Shown here: positions 1 to 10,736 of the stretch, piece after piece
Position numbering within the stretch: the stretch's first letter is position 1
Layout of the letters: each line of letters begins with the position of its first letter
Source of the DNA: a virus
Taxonomy: Duplodnaviria > Heunggongvirae > Uroviricota > Caudoviricetes
Virus record (IMG/VR): IMGVR_UViG_645951847_000024
Length of the DNA stretch: 41,294 nt
Reading direction: 5' to 3' (one strand)
Notes under the pieces: generated by a model
Told to the model about the DNA's origin: nothing
Seen by the model: only the letters and a program-made list of their open reading frames with translations
The model's database searches: none
Translations under genes and position numbers: made by a program

Positions 1-3000
1 TTGCTCACCTTTACGGATTCGCGTCAGGGTACCGCTCGCATTTCAGCCCGCTTACAGCAGGATGCCGATAAAGCGACGTTGCGAGCTCTTTGTTACCAGG
101 AGCTGGCAAATATTACAGAGCCTTCAGCAAAACTCAGCCCGGCACACTGTGCACTGTTAGAGAAAGTTATTAGCCAGTTTTCTGTCCTCCCTTTAAAAAA
201 TTCCATCGACGCGCTGAAAAAAGCGATGGCTGCGAATGAGGAGCTTAGCCCGACGGACATTCAGGCACTTAAAATTATTGAGCCGATGGTGAGTTCCTTA
301 AGCACGGAGCATGCTGAAGCGATGCAAATACTTCAGGCTAACTCTGGCAATCAGCAGAAGAAAACCATGTCATGGCAAACGCTGTCTGAACAGCTGGTTG
401 GCAGTGTGGACCTTGCCGATAGAATGAGAGGCAGTTTTAAAGAATTGTCTGGGCTTGATCTTACTAAACAACAGTTTGCAGATTTTTGTTTATACAGCGA
501 GTTTGGTCGCCGCCCTAAAAATGCCTGGACCCTCGAAAGTCTGGGTCTGGTAGCCATTCACTATCCATTCATTGATAAAGTTACAACCTGCCCGCAGGAC
601 TGGAAGACATTATTACCCGATCCCGATAAGCAATTAGCGGAATGGCGTAATTTATTGAAGATTACTCTTGATTTCTTTATCCGTGAAAACAGTGCCGTTT
701 TTTACGAAAACGAGCAATACCCTCGCTGGATGGGGGCACGTTTCCCGGTAAAAATGCTCCAGGGGCCAGATAAAAAAAACAAAGGGCAGAAACGTGATCA
801 ACTTTGGCCACAAATACGCGATCGCCATTATAACCGGGTCATTAAGCTATTAATCGCAGTCTTTCCGGCAATACAACCTGAGCAGGCTCACTGGAAATCG
901 TTAGTTAACCACTTAATGATTGAGGTCTGGGATGCAATTCGACCCTGCTTACGTCAGTTTGAGTCGGGTTATCAGCTGGATATTAAACAACAAGCTGAAT
1001 TTTACAGTCCAAAGCAAGTGTGGCGTTGCCCCTATACTCGACGTGCGTTAGACGTCACGTTGCTGGGATACTCTCCGTATTTGCCGGGTAGCAAAGAAAT
1101 TGCACCTGAAAAAGCAGTGTTGATTGAAATGCCTGAGCTTCCTGTACGTCACTGGCGTTTGTCTGGTGGTGGAGAAATCGCCCGAGAAGAACGTCTGGAG
1201 TGGCTGGAAAGTAATGCGCTGATTCAACATGCCCGCGAGGAAGGATTATGGTCTACTCGCAGCGACCGACTGGCCCTGAAAGATAGCTGGTATCGTCTGG
1301 AGGAACACTCTGCGCAGAGAACGCCTGAGCAGAACCAGTTTAATGAAAAACAATTTAAGTCAGGCAAAGTTAATGTGCTGAACTGTTCCACGACCATGGA
1401 GATGGGGGTGGATATTGGTGGTATGAGTTTGGTGGCAATGAACAACGTTCCTCCAGCGCCGGCAAATTATTTGCAACGTGCAGGTCGCGCGGGGCGTCGT
1501 GGAGAGAGTGCATCTGCTGCCATTACGTTATGTAAAAACACGGCGCATGGAATGGAGGTATTCAAAGACCCCCTCTGGGCGTTCAACACTACTGCCAGTG
1601 CGCCACGGGTTCGTTTTGGGAGCAGTAGTATTGTTCAACGACATGTTAATGCCCTGGTTTTAGGTCTGTTTTTACGAGCTGAAGTTCCTGATGCGACAAA
1701 ACTGAGTTGCAAATGGTTCTTTGAAGGTGATGAGAGCCAGTGTCTTCGTTTTCTCCATTGGTTAAATCACCAGGCCGATCAGCTGGCGGATAAACTTAAA
1801 CGCCTTACTCAGGGAACCGTACTGATGTCATTGACGGCAACCCAGCTCTTGACCCGCACACAAGCAATGATGCAGCAGGTTGATATCCGCTGGAGAAGCC
1901 AACTTGCGATACTGTTGGAAAATATCGAAGCGTTGAAGGCGGATAACAGCGCGTGGGAAGAAACACCAGCAGGTAAAGCCATCGCTTATCAGCTTCGTGA
2001 TTATCGCGGTGCATATCTGTTTTCTAAACTCATTAGTGAAGCGTTCCTGCCGGGGCATGGTTTCCCGGTTGGCGTAGTCAATTTCAATTATCTGACGGCA
2101 GATGAGCTGGAAAAACGTCGCGCAATAAAAGCCACTCAGGCTGACCCTAATGAAGGGGGAGAAAGCTTTTCTCGTCGTATTGAAAAATTGCCCAGCCGTG
2201 ATTTGCCTACAGCATTACGCGAGTATGCGCCTGGTGCAGATGTGGTATTGGGCGGAAAAGTATATCGTTCCTCGGGCATTATGCTTGGCAAGGTGCTTGC
2301 CAGCGGGCAGGAGCTGTCAGGCGATCATCATATTCCGTGGTTCTGGCATTGCCGTAAATGTGGTGCGGGGGCAACCAGTACTACCCATCCTGTCGAATGT
2401 AGTCACTGCAAAGCGGATATACAGCAACTTGATGTGAAGCGTTATTTACAGCCTGTTGGTTTTGCGACAGATATTCGTTATCAGGCACATAATGATGTAT
2501 CCATGCCTGCACAACTTCCCTGGAAAGATCCACGTGTTCTTGTACCGTCTTCGGTGTGGGTTTCTTTACCCGATGCTGGGCTAGGACGTTACCGTTTTAG
2601 CCATAGTGGGGAATTGTTCCACTTCAGTGAAGGGGAATTTGGGCACGGCTACGCAATTTGCCTCTCATGTGGTCGGGCAGAATCTCAAACTCAACCCCAG
2701 CGTACCCCTGAAAATCTAAAGAACCCAGAGAGGGAAAATACGCATTACCTGTTGCGAGGGGGCAGTAACGATCGTCAGGGGAGCAATAAATTGTGCCACG
2801 GTCATGTGCATAAAGATCTGTGGTTGGGATATAGCAGTCGTACAGATATGGTTGAGCTGCAACTCAATGATGATAATGGCCTGTTGATCCGTGATGAGGT
2901 TGCCGCGCGTTCCCTTGCGGTCGCTTTGCGTGAAGGGTTAGCGCATAAATTGGGTATCGAAAATACTGAGCTGGGCGTGACGACGCAGCAAGCGCGCGAT

Positions 3001-3279
3001 ATCAATGGCTATACCGGATATTCCATCTTCATTTACGACAATAATGCGGGTGGTGCAGGTTATGCAGTGCAATTGATCGACCATTGGGCTGATGTCTTTA
3101 ATTACGCCAGAAAATTGCTCGATTGCAGTTGCGATAAATTCTGTCACCACTGCTTGCTCAGCTACGACAGTCAGCATTATGTCAACAGATTAGATCGTCA
3201 CCATGCATTAACCCTGCTTACCAATGTACGGTTGCAGCGACTTAACCTCGCGCCAGATATAGCGCGGCGATTTTTTTGA
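1..3279 (+). CDS. C-terminal part (5' end cut by window) of a large SF2 helicase with a Cys-rich DUF1998-like zinc-ribbon C-terminal domain; probably host-encoded
   Basis: Helicase C-domain motifs TMEMGVDIGG and QRAGRAGRRG in the translation; C-terminal Cys clusters (CRKCGAG...CSHC, CLSCG, CSCDKFCHHC). ORF starts at window position 1, so truncated. Family assignment from memory only. Confidence 0.6.
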   Translation: MLTFTDSRQGTARISARLQQDADKATLRALCYQELANITEPSAKLSPAHCALLEKVISQFSVLPLKNSIDALKKAMAANEELSPTDIQALKIIEPMVSSLSTEHAEAMQILQANSGNQQKKTMSWQTLSEQLVGSVDLADRMRGSFKELSGLDLTKQQFADFCLYSEFGRRPKNAWTLESLGLVAIHYPFIDKVTTCPQDWKTLLPDPDKQLAEWRNLLKITLDFFIRENSAVFYENEQYPRWMGARFPVKMLQGPDKKNKGQKRDQLWPQIRDRHYNRVIKLLIAVFPAIQPEQAHWKSLVNHLMIEVWDAIRPCLRQFESGYQLDIKQQAEFYSPKQVWRCPYTRRALDVTLLGYSPYLPGSKEIAPEKAVLIEMPELPVRHWRLSGGGEIAREERLEWLESNALIQHAREEGLWSTRSDRLALKDSWYRLEEHSAQRTPEQNQFNEKQFKSGKVNVLNCSTTMEMGVDIGGMSLVAMNNVPPAPANYLQRAGRAGRRGESASAAITLCKNTAHGMEVFKDPLWAFNTTASAPRVRFGSSSIVQRHVNALVLGLFLRAEVPDATKLSCKWFFEGDESQCLRFLHWLNHQADQLADKLKRLTQGTVLMSLTATQLLTRTQAMMQQVDIRWRSQLAILLENIEALKADNSAWEETPAGKAIAYQLRDYRGAYLFSKLISEAFLPGHGFPVGVVNFNYLTADELEKRRAIKATQADPNEGGESFSRRIEKLPSRDLPTALREYAPGADVVLGGKVYRSSGIMLGKVLASGQELSGDHHIPWFWHCRKCGAGATSTTHPVECSHCKADIQQLDVKRYLQPVGFATDIRYQAHNDVSMPAQLPWKDPRVLVPSSVWVSLPDAGLGRYRFSHSGELFHFSEGEFGHGYAICLSCGRAESQTQPQRTPENLKNPERENTHYLLRGGSNDRQGSNKLCHGHVHKDLWLGYSSRTDMVELQLNDDNGLLIRDEVAARSLAVALREGLAHKLGIENTELGVTTQQARDINGYTGYSIFIYDNNAGGAGYAVQLIDHWADVFNYARKLLDCSCDKFCHHCLLSYDSQHYVNRLDRHHALTLLTNVRLQRLNLAPDIARRFF

Positions 3280-3390
3280 TACCGATTTGCATTTCATTTG
3301 ATACCGCTGAAAAACGCCGATACGCAACTTATTTGATACTAAATCGGCGCTTTTCTTTTGAGTTTTAGAATGAGTTTTTAAGCGCTCATT
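3280..3390. mobile_element. Candidate prophage right-end region (transposase-binding repeats?); exact terminus not resolved
   Basis: Three TTTGATAC(C/T) motifs at about 3273, 3298 and 3343, and a 13-bp inverted repeat (GAAAAACGCCGAT / ATCGGCGCTTTTC, about 3309-3357) between the host stop codon and the mom stop. No match to the canonical Mu terminal sequence. Confidence 0.3.
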
Positions 3391-5469: not shown

Positions 5470-5514
5470 CTCCCGCCAGCCATATCATGACCGGCGGGAT
5501 TTTTTTATTCTGTT
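5470..5514 (+). terminator. GC-rich hairpin followed by T7 run (plus-strand terminator-like), overlapping the esterase stop codon
   Basis: TCCCGCC (5471-5477) pairs with GGCGGGA (5493-5499), then TTTTTTTATT. On the minus strand the same hairpin is not followed by a T-run. Confidence 0.4.
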
Positions 5515-7544
5515 ACCGCTTTTTTCACTTCCACCACAATGCTGTCAATCAGCACCGGGTAAGTTGCATTTTTTGTGATATCCGTTACGCGGAGTTTGTC
5601 CACCGGGAAAGTTCCTACTGGTGACTGCGTCAGGGTAAACGCGGCACCATCCTGACCATCAATAACCGGAATAACCTGAAGGCTGTTATTTCCTGCAAAA
5701 CGGAAGGCCAGCGTATGCCATTCATTATCAAATGCACCAAAGGTTCCCAGTTTCTGGTTATTTGTTGCCACTTTTGCATTGTGGTACATCACATTCAGGT
5801 CTTTTGCGTCTGTCTGGATGTAGAACGATGCCAGCAGATTATTCCCTGCATCCCCTGTCAGGGTGACACCCTGCGGCAGAGAGGAAACCGGCCAGTAAAG
5901 CCCCATGACATACTGGTTTGCCACCAGGTCGCCAGGTACTTTAAAACGACAACTGATTAAACCACCATTTTTCAGCAGTTCAGCACCAGTACCGGCATCA
6001 TGATCCAGATACCAAGATGATTTACCTGTTTCCTTGGTCAGTTTCATTGCCTTACCACCTGTGCCTCCTGCATCACTGATAATTTCAGCTTTACCGCCAG
6101 CCGGCTCCCAGCCCTGGGCTTTCAGATTTCCTTCTGACTCACTGACACGATAAGACAGCAGTGTTGTGGTTACTGCTTCAGTTTCTGAAGGTGACGGCAC
6201 TGGTGCTTCAGTTTCAGAAGATGGAACATCGGCTTTTACTGTGGTTCGCCCCGCATGAGTCAGAACTGCCGTGGCCAGACGGTCGGAAATAATCCCACGA
6301 CGTGCCCATGAACTGAAATGGCTGGCCCGGTCCGCAGATGTCCAGGTGGCGGCACTGTTACGCCACGTTGAGCCGTAATAACCAATGGATTCAATATCCG
6401 GGTCTTCTGCCGGATTGTTGGTGGGTACATTCGCGTCATTTTCATCTGTCATTAATGGAACGAAATGAATGTTTTTATCTGTTTTGTTTTTGTAGCCGCC
6501 ATAGATTGCCTGGTATGCCGGTTCATTTTTCTGTTTCCAGAAATACGTGGTATCGCCACAAATCCACGGAACGCCAGCAGCACTGCCACCGGTACACTGT
6601 TCCGCCTGTTCAGCCAGGTCTGCGCGGAATTTTTCCACCATCGCCAGAAACAGCGCGGAATGCTCCGTCGGCTTCGCATCAATATCAAACTCGCCCTGCA
6701 TCCACACCACAGCAAGCAGGCGGTTTTTCGGGTTCTTCGCCAGTGCCGCTTTTGTCCGGCTGATTAAGTCCTTATACAGCGGCTTATCCACACCCCAGCG
6801 GGCTGAGTCCTCTGAAGCACCCGTGCTGTCACTGTACGTGCCGTCAGCACCCGCCGTGAATGCAGAACCACCACGGCAGCAGGGAACCAGCAGAATCCCC
6901 GCATCTGCCGGAATAAACGGCAGCAGTTTTTTGGCAATGTGAAGCCCCTGACCCACGGTGCCATATTGCCCTTTAGCCACATCCGCTTTCGGGTGATTTT
7001 TTCCACTCATATCCTGCACATCATGCAGACAGTGGTCGGCCAGAATGATGTCGTTATACTGACAGGCTTTACCTCCCGGCGTGACTGTACTGCGACGGGC
7101 TAACTGCATAATACGCGGTTCGGGGCGGTCATATGTCTCCGGCAGTGGCAGACCTTCACCGTAAGCCATACCGTTTGACTGACCAGCAAGAACCACCACG
7201 TAATACCAGGAAGGGGAGCTGGAAGCAGTTTCATTTCCTGACGGACGGGTATGTGTTTCAGCATTATCCCAGTCTGACGGTTCAGCAGTACCGGCAACAT
7301 CAGCACTTAACGGAATGACCGCACCAATACCCGCTCCGGTAATTTCCACACTCGGATCACCGGATACTGGCCTTACCCACAGGCAATCCCGTGTATTAAA
7401 ACTGATGAGACAGTCAGCAAATGTCATTCCTCCTTTTGTTTCGGCCGGAGGAAAGGGAGCCTCAAGAAATGCCGCTGTACCACCGGAAACTTTAACAGTA
7501 AAGTTTCCGGGCATTGATGATAGTTGAACCCATTTGGACGTCAT
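5505..7544 (-). CDS. Predicted sialate O-acetylesterase-like cargo protein (SGNH/SASA-type esterase with extra N- and C-terminal domains), NanS-p-like
   Basis: 679 aa; VVLAGQSNGMAYGEG resembles the GQSN catalytic-Ser block of sialic-acid-specific acetylesterases; sits between gin and com-mom, where Mu has no gene. Family from memory. Confidence 0.6.
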   Translation of the reverse strand: MTSKWVQLSSMPGNFTVKVSGGTAAFLEAPFPPAETKGGMTFADCLISFNTRDCLWVRPVSGDPSVEITGAGIGAVIPLSADVAGTAEPSDWDNAETHTRPSGNETASSSPSWYYVVVLAGQSNGMAYGEGLPLPETYDRPEPRIMQLARRSTVTPGGKACQYNDIILADHCLHDVQDMSGKNHPKADVAKGQYGTVGQGLHIAKKLLPFIPADAGILLVPCCRGGSAFTAGADGTYSDSTGASEDSARWGVDKPLYKDLISRTKAALAKNPKNRLLAVVWMQGEFDIDAKPTEHSALFLAMVEKFRADLAEQAEQCTGGSAAGVPWICGDTTYFWKQKNEPAYQAIYGGYKNKTDKNIHFVPLMTDENDANVPTNNPAEDPDIESIGYYGSTWRNSAATWTSADRASHFSSWARRGIISDRLATAVLTHAGRTTVKADVPSSETEAPVPSPSETEAVTTTLLSYRVSESEGNLKAQGWEPAGGKAEIISDAGGTGGKAMKLTKETGKSSWYLDHDAGTGAELLKNGGLISCRFKVPGDLVANQYVMGLYWPVSSLPQGVTLTGDAGNNLLASFYIQTDAKDLNVMYHNAKVATNNQKLGTFGAFDNEWHTLAFRFAGNNSLQVIPVIDGQDGAAFTLTQSPVGTFPVDKLRVTDITKNATYPVLIDSIVVEVKKAVTE

Positions 7545-7643
7545 AATAATCAGCCTGTTCCTGAATAAACTGAATTATCATATCCACAGACCGATAAACG
7601 CCATTTTGCGTTAATTCAGTAAAGGCCCAACAAAGGGAGCGTC

Positions 7644-8204
7644 TTATTTTTCCGAAACGCTCGCAGGATAATAACGATAAAGGGTTGAAAGGCCGATATC
7701 AAAAATAAGTGCCACCTGTCTTCGACTGACACCCCCGGCCAGTAAACGCCCGACCTGCTCGTATTGTTCCTGCGTGAGACGACGGGGTCTGCCGCCGGTT
7801 CGTCCCCTTTCACGGGCAGCTGCAAGACCAGCCCGTGTCCGTTCGACAATTAATTCACGCTCCATTTCTGCCAGCGCACCCATTATGTGAAAAAAGAAGC
7901 GCCCCATGGGGGTTGACGTATCAATGTTGTCAGTAAGACTACGAAAATTTATCCCCTGTTGCTGTAATTCATCTGTCAGCGCAACAAGGTGGCGCATACT
8001 GCGCCCCAGCCTGTCCAGTTTCCAGACCATCAGTGTGTCACCGGGTTTTAGTTTCTTCAGTGCCCGCTTCAGTCCCGGCCGCTGTGTCGTTTTACCACTC
8101 ATTTTATCTTCAAAAATCTGCTCACATCCTGCACATTCCAGCGCATTTCTTTGTAAACCTGTGTTCTGGTCATTTGTTGATACGCGTATATAGCCAATCA
8201 GCAT
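7644..8204 (-). CDS. gin: Serine DNA invertase (Gin/Hin/Pin/Cin family)
   Basis: MLIGYIRVSTNDQNTGLQRNALECAGCEQIFEDK...GRFFFHIMGALAEMERELI is near-identical in pattern to Mu Gin; catalytic Ser in RVSTNDQ; adjacent to an inverted tail-fibre segment. Confidence 0.93.
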   Translation of the reverse strand: MLIGYIRVSTNDQNTGLQRNALECAGCEQIFEDKMSGKTTQRPGLKRALKKLKPGDTLMVWKLDRLGRSMRHLVALTDELQQQGINFRSLTDNIDTSTPMGRFFFHIMGALAEMERELIVERTRAGLAAARERGRTGGRPRRLTQEQYEQVGRLLAGGVSRRQVALIFDIGLSTLYRYYPASVSEK

Positions 8205-8259
8205 GTATTTACCTTCCTTAAAAAGAGGTGGAAAGGCCTTTTAAAGCAGATATACGGCA

Positions 8260-8283
8260 TCCCTGAAACCTCGGTTTACGGGA
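8260..8283. other. gix/hix-like crossover site A (gin-proximal)
   Basis: TCCCTGAAACC-TC-GGTTTACGGGA: imperfect 11-2-11 palindrome of the AAACC-NN-GGTTT type used by Gin/Hin invertases. Confidence 0.5.
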
Positions 8284-8629
8284 TACTGTAAACAGGGCCG
8301 CGAATGCCCTGCCATCGAACGGAGCGGCTGTTGCAGCGAATAAACTCGCCACTCCAAGAAATATTAATGGTGTCCCATTTGACGGAACGCAGGATATAAA
8401 TATTACATCGGGGATGACGCAGTCTGTGGCTGACTCACGTTATGTTCAAAGCATTCGAAGAGGTTCAAGGTCAACGATTGGAATGCAATATAATATTTTT
8501 GAGGTTCCTGACGGATGCGTACTTACAGGGCTTGATGTCGCTGGTGATGGTAATGCAACGGTAACCGCATATTATCGACCTGTTCAGTTTCTGATAGATG
8601 GTTCGTGGAAAACAGCTTCCAGCGCATAA
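8273..8629 (+). CDS. Alternative tail-fibre C-terminal cassette (S'v), silent in this orientation
   Basis: Frame open from 8267; encodes GLRDTVNRAANALPSNGAAVAANKLATPRNINGVPFDGTQDINITSGMTQSVADSRYVQ, homologous to residues about 196-255 of the minus-strand tail fibre (GLRETVNKAADALPSGGTAVAANRLATPRNINGVPFDGTLDINITSGMTQSTADGRYVQ); both tips end YYRPVQ...W.T.SS. Confidence 0.6.
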   Translation, partial: GLRDTVNRAANALPSNGAAVAANKLATPRNINGVPFDGTQDINITSGMTQSVADSRYVQSIRRGSRSTIGMQYNIFEVPDGCVLTGLDVAGDGNATVTAYYRPVQFLIDGSWKTASSA

Positions 8630-8708
8630 AAGTGCAGTAGTTCAAAAAACAGATTATCTGAATAAATATATGATGATTTTGTCTTTTCAACAAAAACAAG
8701 GTGAAATA

Positions 8709-9230
8709 ATGGAGCTTATTAACGTAAAACGATATTACCCGGAACACAAACCCTATGGTGAGGATGTTCAGTATTTCCAGAGTGAGGACGGAAGGGATTT
8801 TTATGAATCTATCCCGCTTTTCACAAAGAAATACAAACTCTGTATTTCGCCTGTAACGGGTATTATCTGCTCTGTTGCTGAAGATGTCTCTGCTTTATAT
8901 CCGGCAGGTTTTACTGTTGTTGAAGTGGACGAACTGCCGGAAGGTGTGAATATTGACGGTAACTGGCAGTTTTCTGATGGCCTGATATCAAAGGTGCCGG
9001 TAAACTGGAAGACGGTTGCTGAAAAGCGCCGCTCATCGCTGCTCCAGGAAGCCAACGAAACTGTGGATGACTGGAAAACGGAATTAAAACTGGACATGAT
9101 TAGCGATGAAAATAAATTACAGCTGACGCGCTGGATGGCGTATATCCGACAGCTTAAAGAAATGCACTTTAATGATATTGCCAGTGAGGGGCATTACCAG
9201 GCGATTCCCTGGCCGGAAAAACCGGAATAA
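8709..9230 (+). CDS. Tail-fibre assembly (chaperone) protein, U'-like
   Basis: Follows S'v on the same strand; AAGGTGA SD before ATG 8709 (MELINVKRYYPEHK...); C-terminal ...IPWPEKPE resembles Tfa family ends. Family from memory. Confidence 0.65.
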   Translation: MELINVKRYYPEHKPYGEDVQYFQSEDGRDFYESIPLFTKKYKLCISPVTGIICSVAEDVSALYPAGFTVVEVDELPEGVNIDGNWQFSDGLISKVPVNWKTVAEKRRSSLLQEANETVDDWKTELKLDMISDENKLQLTRWMAYIRQLKEMHFNDIASEGHYQAIPWPEKPE

Positions 9231-9264
9231 TTCAGAGGGTGCATTCAGCACCCTTTTCTGTGGT

Positions 9265-10176
9265 TTACACTGAACTTACCGTTCTCCAGGCATTATTAAT
9301 ATAAATCTGAACCGGGCGATAATAGACCCCACCGATATTGTCCGCAGACCGGGAGCCGGTTTCCTGCACGTTAATTCCGGAAAGCATACAACCGGAAGGT
9401 GCGCTGTAATTCCATGACATTTCATTGCCTCCGGGTGAATGATAGCTCTGTGCTCCAAGCTGAACATTCTGTACATACCGGCCATCTGCGGTTGACTGCG
9501 TCATTCCTGACGTGATGTTGATATCCAGCGTTCCGTCAAAAGGAACACCATTAATATTTCTTGGGGTGGCGAGTCTGTTTGCTGCCACGGCGGTTCCACC
9601 CGATGGCAGGGCATCAGCAGCCTTATTTACCGTTTCCCGTAAACCAACGTTATCGATAAAAGCGCCTTTATCCGGAATGTCTGCGCCGTTCTGCTCCCTG
9701 CGCAGGTAACGGTTATCACCTTCGCTTTTGCTGTAAACATCCAGATTATTACGGGCGGTTCCCGCATTCTCCAGGTCGGCAAGGTTCTGATCCTTCGCCA
9801 GAGCATTAACGTCACCGGGACCAAGACTGTTTTTTGTGGCAAGCGCCCCAAGACCAAGATAACCACGGGCAAGACGCTGGGCTTCCGCACCGGCATCAGC
9901 AATTTCTTTCAGGTTGTTTTTCCGGGAAAAGGCATTCGCAGCGATAATGGCTTTAATGGACAGCGTAAGCTGGTTTAACTGCGCCTTATCCGGCTGAATA
10001 CTGGCTTCAGCCAGAATATTCAGCAGTTCGGCCTGGAGAATATTCAGCCAGTCCTGACCAATCCAGCTGATACCTTTTTGTCCGTCACCTTCGGTAAACC
10101 AGGTGGTGGTATTACTCTGCGCCGGTGCCAGCGCAGGCATATTCGCCACGCCGGAATTATTATCAACATGGAACAT
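9265..10176 (-). CDS. Tail fibre protein S (constant part joined to Sv tip in current orientation)
   Basis: Start taken at internal ATG (MFHVDNNSGVANMPALAPA) overlapping the upstream stop (TAATG); position after baseplate genes. Confidence 0.8.
   Translation of the reverse strand: MFHVDNNSGVANMPALAPAQSNTTTWFTEGDGQKGISWIGQDWLNILQAELLNILAEASIQPDKAQLNQLTLSIKAIIAANAFSRKNNLKEIADAGAEAQRLARGYLGLGALATKNSLGPGDVNALAKDQNLADLENAGTARNNLDVYSKSEGDNRYLRREQNGADIPDKGAFIDNVGLRETVNKAADALPSGGTAVAANRLATPRNINGVPFDGTLDINITSGMTQSTADGRYVQNVQLGAQSYHSPGGNEMSWNYSAPSGCMLSGINVQETGSRSADNIGGVYYRPVQIYINNAWRTVSSV
9635..9659. other. gix/hix-like crossover site B (inside tail-fibre gene S)
   Basis: TCCCGTAAACC-AA-CGTTATCGATA on plus; its inner arm is the exact reverse complement of the inner arm of site A (GGTTTACGGGA). 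S/S' homology begins exactly here. Confidence 0.5.
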
Positions 10177-10736
10177 TAAATATTCTCCTCTTCGTGACTG
10201 TTTGCATATACGTAAATAAACGTCTGCCATGCAGGCTTATAACGGTTCAGAATACATTCCAGCGCACCGCCTTCATAAATACGCAGCGGCGTGAGAATAT
10301 CATCCAGCACATTCATATTCCGGTAGCCGGTTTCACTGTTAATCGTGACAATACTGACCCACTGTGAATCCGGTGATGGCTGAATATCTATTTCATAACC
10401 AAACTCTGCCGCAAACCGGATATAAAATTCACGGTTAAGAGAGGGTTTCATCCGGTATTTATTCCCGGCATAACGCTGACGCTCCTGAATTGTTGCGCCG
10501 GTCATATCACATTCCGGTAACCCCAGATAACGCTCCCAGTCTTCCAGCAGCAGACGGGATGAATCAGGAAAACGTTCTGCCAGCATCTGGTTACCGGTCC
10601 AGGAAACACGCTCCGTGGAATGACTGAGGCCCAGGCACAAAGCCGCAAGAACGGATGACGGCCGCTTATCCCATGCCAGCCCGTCAGGCAGCAACTGCAA
10701 CAGGGCACGCTGATGCGGGGTCAGGGTTACAGCCAT
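10176..10736 (-). CDS. Baseplate/tail protein, Mu gp48-like
   Basis: Position between baseplate J-like gene and tail fibre; translationally coupled. Confidence 0.6.
   Translation of the reverse strand: MAVTLTPHQRALLQLLPDGLAWDKRPSSVLAALCLGLSHSTERVSWTGNQMLAERFPDSSRLLLEDWERYLGLPECDMTGATIQERQRYAGNKYRMKPSLNREFYIRFAAEFGYEIDIQPSPDSQWVSIVTINSETGYRNMNVLDDILTPLRIYEGGALECILNRYKPAWQTFIYVYANSHEEENI

What the first reader, a model, noticed from the sequence alone, without database searches (positions are those of the whole stretch)
8709..9645. Only one tail-fibre assembly gene in the invertible segment; the expressed tip has no co-oriented chaperone
In Mu and P1 each variable tip has its own downstream assembly gene (U, U'). 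Here the expressed minus-strand tip ends at 9265 and the next gene is the convergent plus-strand tfa-like gene (8709-9230) belonging to the silent cassette. Either the current tip folds without a chaperone, the single Tfa serves both, or the segment has lost one gene.
Basis: seen in the sequence. Interest (0 to 1): 0.55.

Follow-up and report, generated by a model that had tools for sequence, protein, structure and literature searches.

The report
One chaperone gene, two tail-fibre tips
The invertible tail-fibre switch of this Mu-like E. coli prophage carries two alternative fibre tips but only one assembly-chaperone gene; this layout is conserved and under selection in a whole group of related prophages, so how the tip currently expressed gets its chaperone is an open, testable question.

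Summary
The window is the Sp18-type Mu-like prophage of Shiga-toxin-producing E. coli.

**Layout**
- A Gin-like invertase (7644-8204, minus strand) and two 26-bp gix-like sites (8259-8284, 9634-9659) flank a 1.4-kb segment.
- The segment holds tip A (expressed, ends at 9265), one tfa gene (8709-9230, plus strand) and silent tip B (8273-8629, plus strand).
- No second tfa exists anywhere in the 41 kb.

**Not a recent loss**
- The one-tfa layout recurs in diverged relatives (Tfa 61-100% identical).
- It is found in both orientations.
- Tips and tfa are under purifying selection.

**An unexpected asymmetry**
- The tip convergent with tfa is always A-class (44 of 44 loci). The co-oriented tip varies among four types (B, C, D, E).
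- In 36 non-invertible phage loci this same Tfa family lies directly downstream of an A-class tip.
- So the "silent cassette's" chaperone belongs to the Tfa family that elsewhere partners A-class tips like the expressed one.

**Most likely reading (about 0.45):** one broad-specificity Tfa serves whichever tip is expressed. That requires tfa transcription independent of the fibre operon in the present orientation, which I could not show.

**Also noted:** the two crossover cores differ in this copy (AA versus GA), so the segment is probably locked in this state.

The parts
9265..10176 (-). Tail-fibre gene S in its present form (303 aa): constant N-terminal part plus tip A
   Evidence: ORF. RefSeq annotates a 912-nt 'tail fiber protein'. 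PDB 5YVQ_A, Mu tail fibre S, E=4e-49, with residues 1-198 and the C-terminal tip both aligned. PHROG 1833 tail fiber.
9634..9659 (+). S-proximal gix-like crossover site, TTCCCGTAAACC-AA-CGTTATCGATAA (core AA)
   Evidence: Mu gix is TTCCTGTAAACC-GA-GGTTTTGGATAA. The core base at 9646 is the only difference from other O157 copies.
9265..9645 (-). Variable tip A (126 aa), currently fused to S and expressed; A-class tip with the motif ...SGINVQETGSRSADNIGGVYYRPVQIYINNAWRTVSSV
   Evidence: dN/dS is 0.04-0.14 between lineages. It is 69% identical to the Rac-SA53 tail1 tip and 61% to SfMu_52.
9234..9256 (.). GC-rich hairpin between the two convergent stop codons. It is followed by a T-run on the plus strand, making it a terminator for tfa. 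On the minus strand the tail is only moderately U-rich.
   Evidence: terminator-like on the plus strand; the hairpin folds on both strands, z about -3.2.
8709..9230 (+). The only tail-fibre assembly (Tfa) gene of the prophage, 173 aa, convergent with the expressed S gene
   Evidence: Pfam PF02413 1.9e-18. PHROG 136 1e-57. 5YVQ_B 2e-15. It is the only hit of the Tfa HMM in the window.
8273..8629 (+). Silent alternative tip B (118 aa, no start codon of its own); joins S after inversion and is then followed by tfa 79 nt downstream
   Evidence: 57% identical to tip A over 126 aa. Genomes in the flipped state carry an intact S-B fusion followed by tfa.
8259..8284 (-). Invertase-proximal gix-like site; on the minus strand it reads ATCCCGTAAACC-GA-GGTTTCAGGGAT (core GA)
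8267..8448 (.). Left arm of the 182-nt inverted repeat (partner 9470-9651, 78% complementary); encodes the shared first ~58 residues of both tips
   Evidence: (repeat I1).
9470..9651 (.). Right arm of the inverted repeat
7644..8204 (-). Gin-family serine DNA invertase (186 aa)
   Evidence: Pfam Resolvase 1.4e-51 and HTH_7 1.7e-14. 136/186 residues identical to Mu Gin. One of the two Fis-consensus sites of the Mu enhancer is kept in the 5' coding region.

Best explanation
This is the G-segment-like host-range switch of an Sp18-type Mu-like prophage, built with a single tail-fibre assembly gene placed between two alternative fibre tips.

**Shown**
- A Gin-like invertase and two gix-like sites flip a 1.4-kb segment, so that S ends either in tip A (as here) or in tip B.
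- Both states occur in natural genomes.
- The one-tfa layout is conserved and selected across a clade.
- Tfa variants and tips are recombined freely with one another.

**Inferred**
- The single Tfa is a broad-specificity chaperone that serves whichever tip is expressed.
- In the flipped state it is simply co-transcribed behind S-B and terminated at the 9234-9256 hairpin.
- In the present state it must be transcribed on the plus strand independently of the late fibre operon, from a weak or phage-activated promoter inside or to the left of the segment. The hairpin between the convergent genes would limit collision with late transcription. That promoter has not been identified.

**This copy**
- The two crossover cores differ (AA versus GA). 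By what is known of Hin and Gin (my own recollection, not checked in the paper library), this should strongly impair inversion and hold the copy in the A state.
For: 1. **One tfa only.**
2. **Both orientations in complete E. coli genomes.** The window state is in 182 genomes and the flipped state in 23, several at about 100% identity.
3. **The same one-tfa layout in diverged lineages.** Tfa is 61-72% identical and the invertase 72-100% identical, again in both orientations (L010-L015; IMG/VR loci).
4. **Purifying selection.** Tip A has dN/dS of 0.04-0.14 with dS up to more than 1; tfa has 0.07-0.33.
5. **Combinatorial shuffling.**
   - Tip B occurs with Tfa variants N0C0 and N0C1.
   - Tip C occurs with N0C0 (98% identical to the window Tfa) and with N3C1 (64%).
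   - Tip A occurs with four Tfa variants.
   - There is therefore no strict tip-Tfa pairing within the clade.
6. **This Tfa family works with A-class tips elsewhere.** In 36 non-invertible loci it sits 17-34 nt downstream of an A-class tip.
7. **Precedent in Mu for a tip-binding domain that does not track the tip.**
   - The N-domains of U and U' are 72% identical although their tips are 39% identical.
   - Mu U is 91% identical to SfMu_51 although the partner tips are only 55% identical.
8. **An invertase-less 'frozen' lineage (L027-L032, L036).**
   - It also occurs in 7 complete genomes, whose strain names suggest at least 4 backgrounds.
   - S(A-class) and tfa are permanently convergent, yet tfa is intact in all copies, in four sequence variants.
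9. **Most natural lysogens are in the A state.** If, as I recall for Mu, the prophage keeps the orientation of the infecting particle, this is what infectious A-type particles would produce (inference).
Against: - No convincing sigma-70 promoter lies upstream of tfa in the window. There are only 8-of-12 matches at -63 and -162 from the ATG, no better than chance in AT-rich DNA.
- The tip-tfa intergenic region is not conserved between cassette types.
- No Mu C-box-like TTAT-N6-ATAA motif is present, though that motif was recalled from memory.
- The convergent tip is always A-class (44 of 44). A pure generalist model does not predict this; it would have to be put down to shared ancestry or to a special Tfa-A relationship.
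- Strong late transcription converging on tfa could suppress a weak promoter.
- The orientation counts are inflated by clonal O157:H7 genomes.
Confidence: 0.45

Rival explanations
1. Tip A is made without Tfa in this state. A-class tips would be the one tip class able to fold, perhaps less efficiently, without a co-expressed chaperone, and the single Tfa would serve only the co-oriented tips (B, C, D, E). The chaperone-less position of the cassette would then tolerate only A-class tips.
For: - It explains the asymmetry directly. The convergent position is A-class in 44 of 44 loci, while the co-transcribed position holds four unrelated tip types.
- No promoter for tfa was found in the A state.
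- tfa is positioned and terminated as a downstream gene of the X tip: a 79-nt gap, then a hairpin plus T-run after it.
Against: - In all 36 non-invertible loci with an A-class tip, a tfa of this very family follows within 17-34 nt. A-class tips therefore normally come with this chaperone.
- Mu fibre production requires TfaMu, as summarised in PMC8174754. I also recall P2 gpG being essential for gpH fibres.
- The frozen lineage has only an A-class tip and still keeps tfa intact.
Confidence: 0.22
2. The A state is a chaperone-less, poorly infective or non-infective state. Either the switch works as an ON/OFF phase variation of fibre assembly, or the cassette is a tolerated remnant of a classical two-tfa segment that lost the tfa behind tip A.
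For: - Classical relatives have two tfa genes: Mu, SfMu, and L095/L079 within the same Tfa family.
- No co-oriented chaperone and no detectable promoter.
- The Sakai prophage analysis scored Sp18 host specificity as '(+) atypical' (PMC2669165).
Against: - Tip A is under strong purifying selection.
- The A state is the majority state in natural lysogens, 182 versus 23 genomes.
- The layout is old enough to have diversified into several lineages.
- The lineage that lost the invertase is frozen in the A state and still occurs in several strains.
- These Mu-like prophages sit at strain-specific sites, and even inside Stx phages, so they are mobile (PMC7430833).
Confidence: 0.13
3. Tfa for tip A is supplied in trans by another resident prophage. 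STEC genomes carry many lambdoid and P2-like prophages with tfa genes of the same family.
For: Homologues of this Tfa at 53-59% identity, paired with A-class tips, are common in other E. coli prophage types.
Against: - Those genes are not expected to be expressed during Mu-type lytic growth.
- A phage depending on a chance co-resident could not spread.
- The layout occurs in many different strain backgrounds.
Confidence: 0.04

Closest known systems
Invertible G segment of phage Mu (Sc-[Sv U | U' S'v]-gin); likewise SfMu, and by recollection D108 and the P1 C segment
   Same: - Same phage type and same position: after gp47/gp48 and before com/mom.
- The S N-terminal domain is homologous (5YVQ_A, E=4e-49).
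- The invertase is 73% identical to Gin.
- There are 26-bp gix-like sites, one inside S.
- The inverted repeats encode the start of both tips.
- Two alternative C-terminal tips are of the P2-H/Mu-S type.
   Different: - One tfa instead of two, so one of the two states has no co-transcribed chaperone.
- The segment is 1.4 kb rather than about 3 kb, and the tips are short (about 120 aa).
- A 679-aa DUF6645/SASA esterase-domain gene lies between the invertase and com/mom.
Non-invertible tip+Tfa modules: Rac-SA53 tail1/tail2, and Mu-like prophages such as L016-L018
   Same: - Their A-class tips are 62-72% identical to tip A.
- The Tfa is 53-57% identical overall and 72% in the N-terminal, tip-binding domain.
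   Different: There the tfa is 17-26 nt downstream of, and co-oriented with, the A-class tip, and no invertase is present. Here the same two partners face each other tail to tail.
TfaMu (Mu gpU) with the fibre tip, PDB 5YVQ (North et al. 2019, as summarised in PMC9608196, PMC7882524 and PMC8174754)
   Same: Same protein family and two-domain organisation. The expected roles follow from it: the N-domain binds the fibre tip, the C-domain drives trimerisation, and the protein stays on the virion.
   Different: Only 32% identical to Mu U. Whether it binds tip A, tip B or both is untested.
Hin/Gin/Cin crossover-site core rule
   Same: The relatives have identical 2-bp cores at both sites, GA/GA or AA/AA.
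   Different: This window has AA at one site and GA at the other. From my recollection of the Hin and Gin literature, such a pair blocks productive inversion in vitro.

Membership tests
Gin/Hin/Cin/Pin-type invertible tail-fibre segment (Mu G segment kind) | Adjacent serine recombinase of the DNA-invertase subfamily (resolvase catalytic domain plus C-terminal HTH) | tested here: met
   Pfam Resolvase 1.4e-51 and HTH_7 1.7e-14. 136/186 residues identical to Mu Gin, with the YIRVST serine motif present.
Gin/Hin/Cin/Pin-type invertible tail-fibre segment (Mu G segment kind) | Two 26-bp crossover sites in inverted orientation, one inside the fibre gene, at the outer ends of longer inverted repeats | tested here: met
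   Sites at 8259-8284 and 9634-9659 share the inner half-site [A/T]TCCCGTAAACC. The Mu gix site is shown for comparison.
Gin/Hin/Cin/Pin-type invertible tail-fibre segment (Mu G segment kind) | Identical 2-bp core (overlap) in the two sites | tested here: not met
   The window has AA (9646-9647) versus GA (the minus-strand reading of 8271-8272). Otherwise identical copies have GA/GA or AA/AA. The feature is therefore met by the family but not by this copy.
Gin/Hin/Cin/Pin-type invertible tail-fibre segment (Mu G segment kind) | Both orientations actually occur | tested here: met
   182 complete E. coli genomes carry the window orientation. 23 carry the in-silico flipped orientation, several at about 100% identity. 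Both states also occur in lineages L010-L015 and in the IMG/VR loci.
Gin/Hin/Cin/Pin-type invertible tail-fibre segment (Mu G segment kind) | Fis-dependent recombinational enhancer in the 5' part of the invertase gene | tested here: inconclusive
   One Fis-consensus site (nt 71-85 of the gene) is conserved with Mu gin. The other (nt 34-48) no longer fits the consensus. Function is not testable here.
Gin/Hin/Cin/Pin-type invertible tail-fibre segment (Mu G segment kind) | Each alternative tip is followed by its own co-oriented assembly gene (S-U and S'-U') | tested here: not met
   There is one Caudo_TAP gene in the segment and in the whole window, and no conserved antisense ORF.
Tail-fibre assembly proteins (Pfam Caudo_TAP; TfaMu-like) | Sequence membership above the curated threshold | tested here: met
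   PF02413 scores 67.3 bits against a cut-off of 22.1. PHROG 136 1e-57.
Tail-fibre assembly proteins (Pfam Caudo_TAP; TfaMu-like) | Two-domain organisation homologous to Mu gpU | tested here: met
   phmmer aligns residues 17-147 to 5YVQ_B residues 23-158, E=2.3e-15. The N and C halves recombine independently in relatives.
Tail-fibre assembly proteins (Pfam Caudo_TAP; TfaMu-like) | Encoded immediately downstream of, and co-transcribed with, the fibre gene it serves | tested here: inconclusive
   Met with respect to silent tip B (79 nt downstream, same strand). Not met with respect to the expressed tip A (opposite strand).
Tail-fibre assembly proteins (Pfam Caudo_TAP; TfaMu-like) | Required for trimerisation of the fibre tip and remains bound to it | not testable with these tools
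   This needs co-expression or virion proteomics. The structure tool takes single chains only.

The most novel reading that the evidence does not exclude
The switch changes two things at once: which tip is made, and whether a chaperone is made with it. In the state seen here, an A-class P2/Mu-type tip would be assembled, and would infect, without its Tfa. The prophage would then produce 'capped' (Tfa-bearing) and 'uncapped' fibres in the two states. A-class tips would be held at the chaperone-less position because they alone can do without it. The hairpin terminates well only in the tfa direction. Expression of the invertase and the downstream esterase-domain gene from late transcripts could therefore also depend on orientation.
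Probability: 0.2. Interest if true: 0.65.

Novelty: new variant of a known kind. Interest (0 to 1): 0.45.

Why it matters
Tail-fibre assembly proteins are generally treated as cognate partners that must be moved together with a tip when phage or tailocin host range is re-engineered.

A natural, conserved cassette in which one Tfa sits between two exchangeable tips, and is found with at least five tip types, says one of two things:
- this Tfa family is a general-purpose chaperone, which would make it a useful part for engineering; or
- one tip class needs no chaperone at all.

Both can be tested directly with existing STEC strains. Natural variants supply the controls: copies probably locked in the A state (AA/GA cores), freely inverting copies (GA/GA or AA/AA), and an invertase-less lineage.

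It also corrects the routine reading of such loci, namely that a tfa belongs to the tip it follows.

Tried and rejected
1. **Hidden co-oriented chaperone.** Rejected.
   - A family HMM against all window ORFs finds only 8709-9230.
   - The minus-strand ORFs under tfa have no Pfam match and are not kept open in relatives.
2. **A structured RNA in the segment.** An Rfam E-value scan of 7500-10300 gave only a chance-level snoRNA hit at 0.44.
3. **A sigma-70 promoter for tfa.**
   - The tool's scan finds none upstream of tfa.
   - A relaxed scan gives only 8-of-12 matches, different in each cassette type.
   - Alignments of the tip-tfa spacer and of the invertase-gix spacer show no conserved promoter-like block.
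4. **A Mu C-protein box.** The motif TTAT-N6-ATAA, recalled from memory, has no match in the window. Inspecting the late intergenic regions gave nothing usable, so the idea was dropped.
5. **A third crossover site that would let tfa flip alone.**
   - Only two credible gix-like sites are found.
   - The tfa is co-oriented with the variable tip and convergent with the A-class tip in all 44 loci.
6. **Relatives outside E. coli.** A scan of one genome per species found none with the Tfa as query.
7. **Strict tip-Tfa cognate pairing judged from N-domain similarity.** I first read the Rac-SA53 result as showing that Tfa is specific for tip A. I softened this after seeing that Mu U and U' have 72%-identical N-domains for tips only 39% identical.
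8. **Literature.** I found no description of the one-tfa layout. The only remarks are that Sp18 has an invertible host-specificity region 'distinct from Mu', scored 'atypical'.
Full report
**1. Is the observation right?** Yes.

- On the minus strand the late operon runs through the baseplate genes gp47 (11812-10727) and gp48 (10736-10176) into the tail-fibre gene S (10176-9265, 303 aa). The ORF lister starts S at 10230, but the ATG at 10176 abuts the gp48 stop and matches the RefSeq annotation of identical copies.
- Thirty-four nucleotides beyond the S stop, on the opposite strand, ends a 173-aa gene (8709-9230). It is a tail-fibre assembly protein by three measures:
  - Pfam Caudo_TAP 1.9e-18;
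  - PHROG 136 1e-57;
  - Mu gpU in PDB 5YVQ_B, 2e-15.
- Seventy-nine nucleotides upstream of it, on the same strand, lies a start-less alternative S C-terminus (8273-8629).
- Inverted repeats of 182 nt (8267-8448 and 9470-9651, 78% complementary) end in 26-bp gix-like sites (8259-8284 and 9634-9659).
- A Resolvase+HTH_7 invertase, 73% identical to Mu Gin, lies next door at 7644-8204.
- A Tfa-family HMM finds no second tfa among all 388 ORFs of the window.
- The ORFs antisense to tfa have no family match and are not conserved as open frames.

**2. What the window is.**

- The 2.7-kb region is 100% identical to many O157:H7 and other STEC chromosomes, with mom and com to its left. The literature search for the O157 Mu-like prophage returned papers on Sp18 of O157 Sakai, and I take this window to be an Sp18-type prophage.
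- Asadulghani et al. 2009 (PMC2669165) judged Sp18 intact and efficiently packaged. [quoted passage not shown]
- I found no paper that describes the single tfa.

**3. Does the segment invert?** In the population, yes.

- The window orientation (tip A expressed) covers at least 80% of the query in 182 of 5426 complete E. coli genomes.
- An in-silico flipped version does so in 23 genomes, several at about 100% identity. In those, an intact S-B fusion is followed by tfa.
- Copies that are otherwise identical over 2701 nt differ only at the first base of the 2-bp crossover core:
  - FDAARGOS_293 has GA at both sites;
  - 2013C-3250 has AA at both sites;
  - the window, and only two genomes identical to it, has AA at the S-proximal site and GA at the invertase-proximal site.
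- Short junction queries suggest the two pure alleles are about equally common: 89 exact matches each for the AA S-proximal junction and for the GA invertase-proximal junction.
- By my recollection of Hin and Gin (not checked in the paper library), unequal cores prevent productive inversion, so this copy is probably held in the A state.
- The pattern also fits what a rare mismatched exchange would give after replication, namely one GA/GA and one AA/AA daughter. This is an inference.

**4. Is the single tfa a recent loss?** No.

- Homologues of the Tfa at 72% and 68% identity sit in the same layout in other Mu-like prophages, in both orientations (L010-L015).
- Thirty-one of 80 IMG/VR loci found with the Tfa have this layout too.
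- Across lineages, the last 68 codons of tip A have dN/dS of 0.04-0.14 in pairs with dS of 0.46 or more (dS up to more than 1). The tfa has 0.07-0.33.
- One lineage (L027-L032, L036; also seven complete genomes, whose strain names suggest at least four backgrounds) shares a single deletion. It removed most of the invertase, the gix site and nearly all of the second tip.
  - S with an A-class tip and tfa are there permanently tail to tail.
  - The tfa is nevertheless intact in all copies, in four sequence variants.

**5.

- I clustered tips and Tfa halves over the 95 of the collected loci that carry a full-length Tfa.
- The tip convergent with tfa is A-class in all 44 loci of the clade where that sequence is available. 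Its motif is ...SGI.VQ[ED].G...ADN[IV][GA]GVYYRP.Q...N.AW.T..S[VI].
- The co-oriented tip is one of four mutually dissimilar types (30-45% identical to one another):
  - B;
  - C (62% identical to the Mu S tip);
  - D;
  - E.
- In 36 non-invertible loci this Tfa family lies 17-34 nt downstream of, and co-oriented with, an A-class tip. These include Rac-SA53, other Mu-like prophages and other IMG/VR phage contigs with fibre genes of 270-680 codons. The Tfa N-domain there is 72% identical to the window's.
- The closest B-like tip among deposited phage genomes (Hafnia phage yong1, 60% identical) and the C-like Mu S tip are served by Tfa proteins whose N-domains are only 34-37% identical to this one.
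- By association, then, the lone tfa is of the family that elsewhere partners A-class tips, the class of the expressed tip it faces.
- Pairing within the clade is nevertheless loose:
  - tip B occurs with two Tfa variants;
  - tip C occurs with Tfa proteins 98% and 64% identical to the window's;
  - tip A occurs with four variants.
- Mu itself shows that the tip-binding domain need not track the tip. The N-domains of U and U' are 72% identical for tips 39% identical. Mu U is 91% identical to SfMu_51 while their partner tips are 55% identical.

**6. The unsolved step.**

- According to work summarised in PMC8174754, PMC7882524 and PMC9608196:
  - TfaMu must be co-expressed for Mu fibre production;
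  - it binds the tip through its N-domain;
  - it stays on the virion.
- In the present state tfa is antisense to the late operon, so it would need its own plus-strand transcription.
- I found no convincing promoter. There are only 8-of-12 sigma-70 matches, no conserved block in the spacers, and no TTAT-N6-ATAA motif.
- The frozen lineage has a better match, ATGATA-N17-TATAAT, 152 nt upstream of tfa.
- The hairpin at 9234-9256 folds on both strands. It carries a good T-run only in the tfa direction. It may limit convergent read-through, but that is not shown.

**7. Explanations.**

- **Shared chaperone, about 0.45.** I rank highest a single broad-specificity Tfa expressed in both states. It fits:
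  - the conservation and selection of the layout;
  - the shuffling of tips and Tfa variants;
  - the A-class/Tfa modules elsewhere;
  - the frozen lineage;
  - the predominance of the A state among natural lysogens.

  Its weaknesses are the missing promoter and the unexplained rule that the convergent tip is always A-class.
- **A-class tips need no co-expressed Tfa, about 0.22.** This explains the rule neatly. It conflicts with every free-standing A-class tip carrying this tfa directly behind it.
- **A fibre-defective A state, about 0.13.** This conflicts with the selection on tip A, its frequency in genomes, and the survival of the A-frozen lineage.
- **Trans-complementation by other prophages, about 0.04.** Unlikely for a phage that spreads between strains.

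**8. Comparison and novelty.**

- The locus works like, and is a relative of, the Mu G segment. Its invertase family, site structure, position and fibre domains all match.
- It fails one defining feature of that family (a tfa behind each tip). This copy also fails another (equal cores).
- It is best called a new variant of a known kind, in a very well-known genome.
- Interest is moderate. The layout is real, conserved and mechanistically puzzling, and natural locked and unlocked variants make it directly testable. It does not point to a new kind of system.

Noticed in passing
window 9646 and 8272 (first core base of the two gix-like sites): - Among otherwise identical copies of 7600-10300, the only polymorphisms are at the crossover core. 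Copies are GA/GA, AA/AA or, rarely and as here, mixed AA/GA.
- The two pure alleles are about equally common: 89 exact matches for each junction.
- The mixed state should impair inversion. It is the expected intermediate for converting one allele into the other through a mismatched exchange.
   Followed up: partly
L027-L032, L036 (for example L027 3697-4000); also E. coli CI5, M1/M3/M18, JE86-ST02/05 and S1-CAM-01-A: - This lineage of the same Mu-like phage shares one deletion that removed most of the invertase, one gix site and nearly all of the second tip.
- S with an A-class tip and tfa are left permanently convergent.
- The tfa stays intact, and a promoter-like ATGATA-N17-TATAAT lies 152 nt upstream of it.
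   Followed up: partly
window 5505-7544 (-): - A 679-aa protein with a SASA carbohydrate-esterase domain and a C-terminal DUF6645 domain lies between the invertase and com/mom. Mu has no gene at that position.
- It is conserved throughout the one-tfa clade.
- Non-invertible relatives (L016-L018) instead carry a second tail-fibre gene plus a DUF4376 chaperone at that place.
- It might be a tail-associated deacetylase or a lysogenic-conversion enzyme.
   Followed up: partly
window 9234-9256: - The inter-gene hairpin is a good intrinsic terminator only on the plus strand, in the tfa direction.
- After inversion it would stop late transcripts before the invertase and the esterase-domain gene.
- In the present state late transcripts may read through into them, so their late expression could depend on orientation.
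   Followed up: no
window 8218-8403 (-) and 9512-9709 (+): Two mirror-image ORFs run antisense to the inverted-repeat arms. The left one is annotated in RefSeq as a hypothetical protein (WP_071526725). Their similarity simply reflects the repeat, and they are very probably not genes.
   Followed up: no
LC727881.1 and LC727895.1 (L007): A 94%-identical copy of this Mu-like phage lies inserted inside Stx2c- and Stx1a-converting phage genomes. It carries a tip A variant 82% identical to the window's and a Tfa 98% identical. This shows both the mobility of the element and that tips are exchanged without tfa.
   Followed up: partly
window 1-3279 (+): A very long open frame (at least 1092 aa) runs off the left end of the window, outside the prophage (mom ends at 3386). 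It is presumably a host gene flanking the insertion and was not examined.
   Followed up: no
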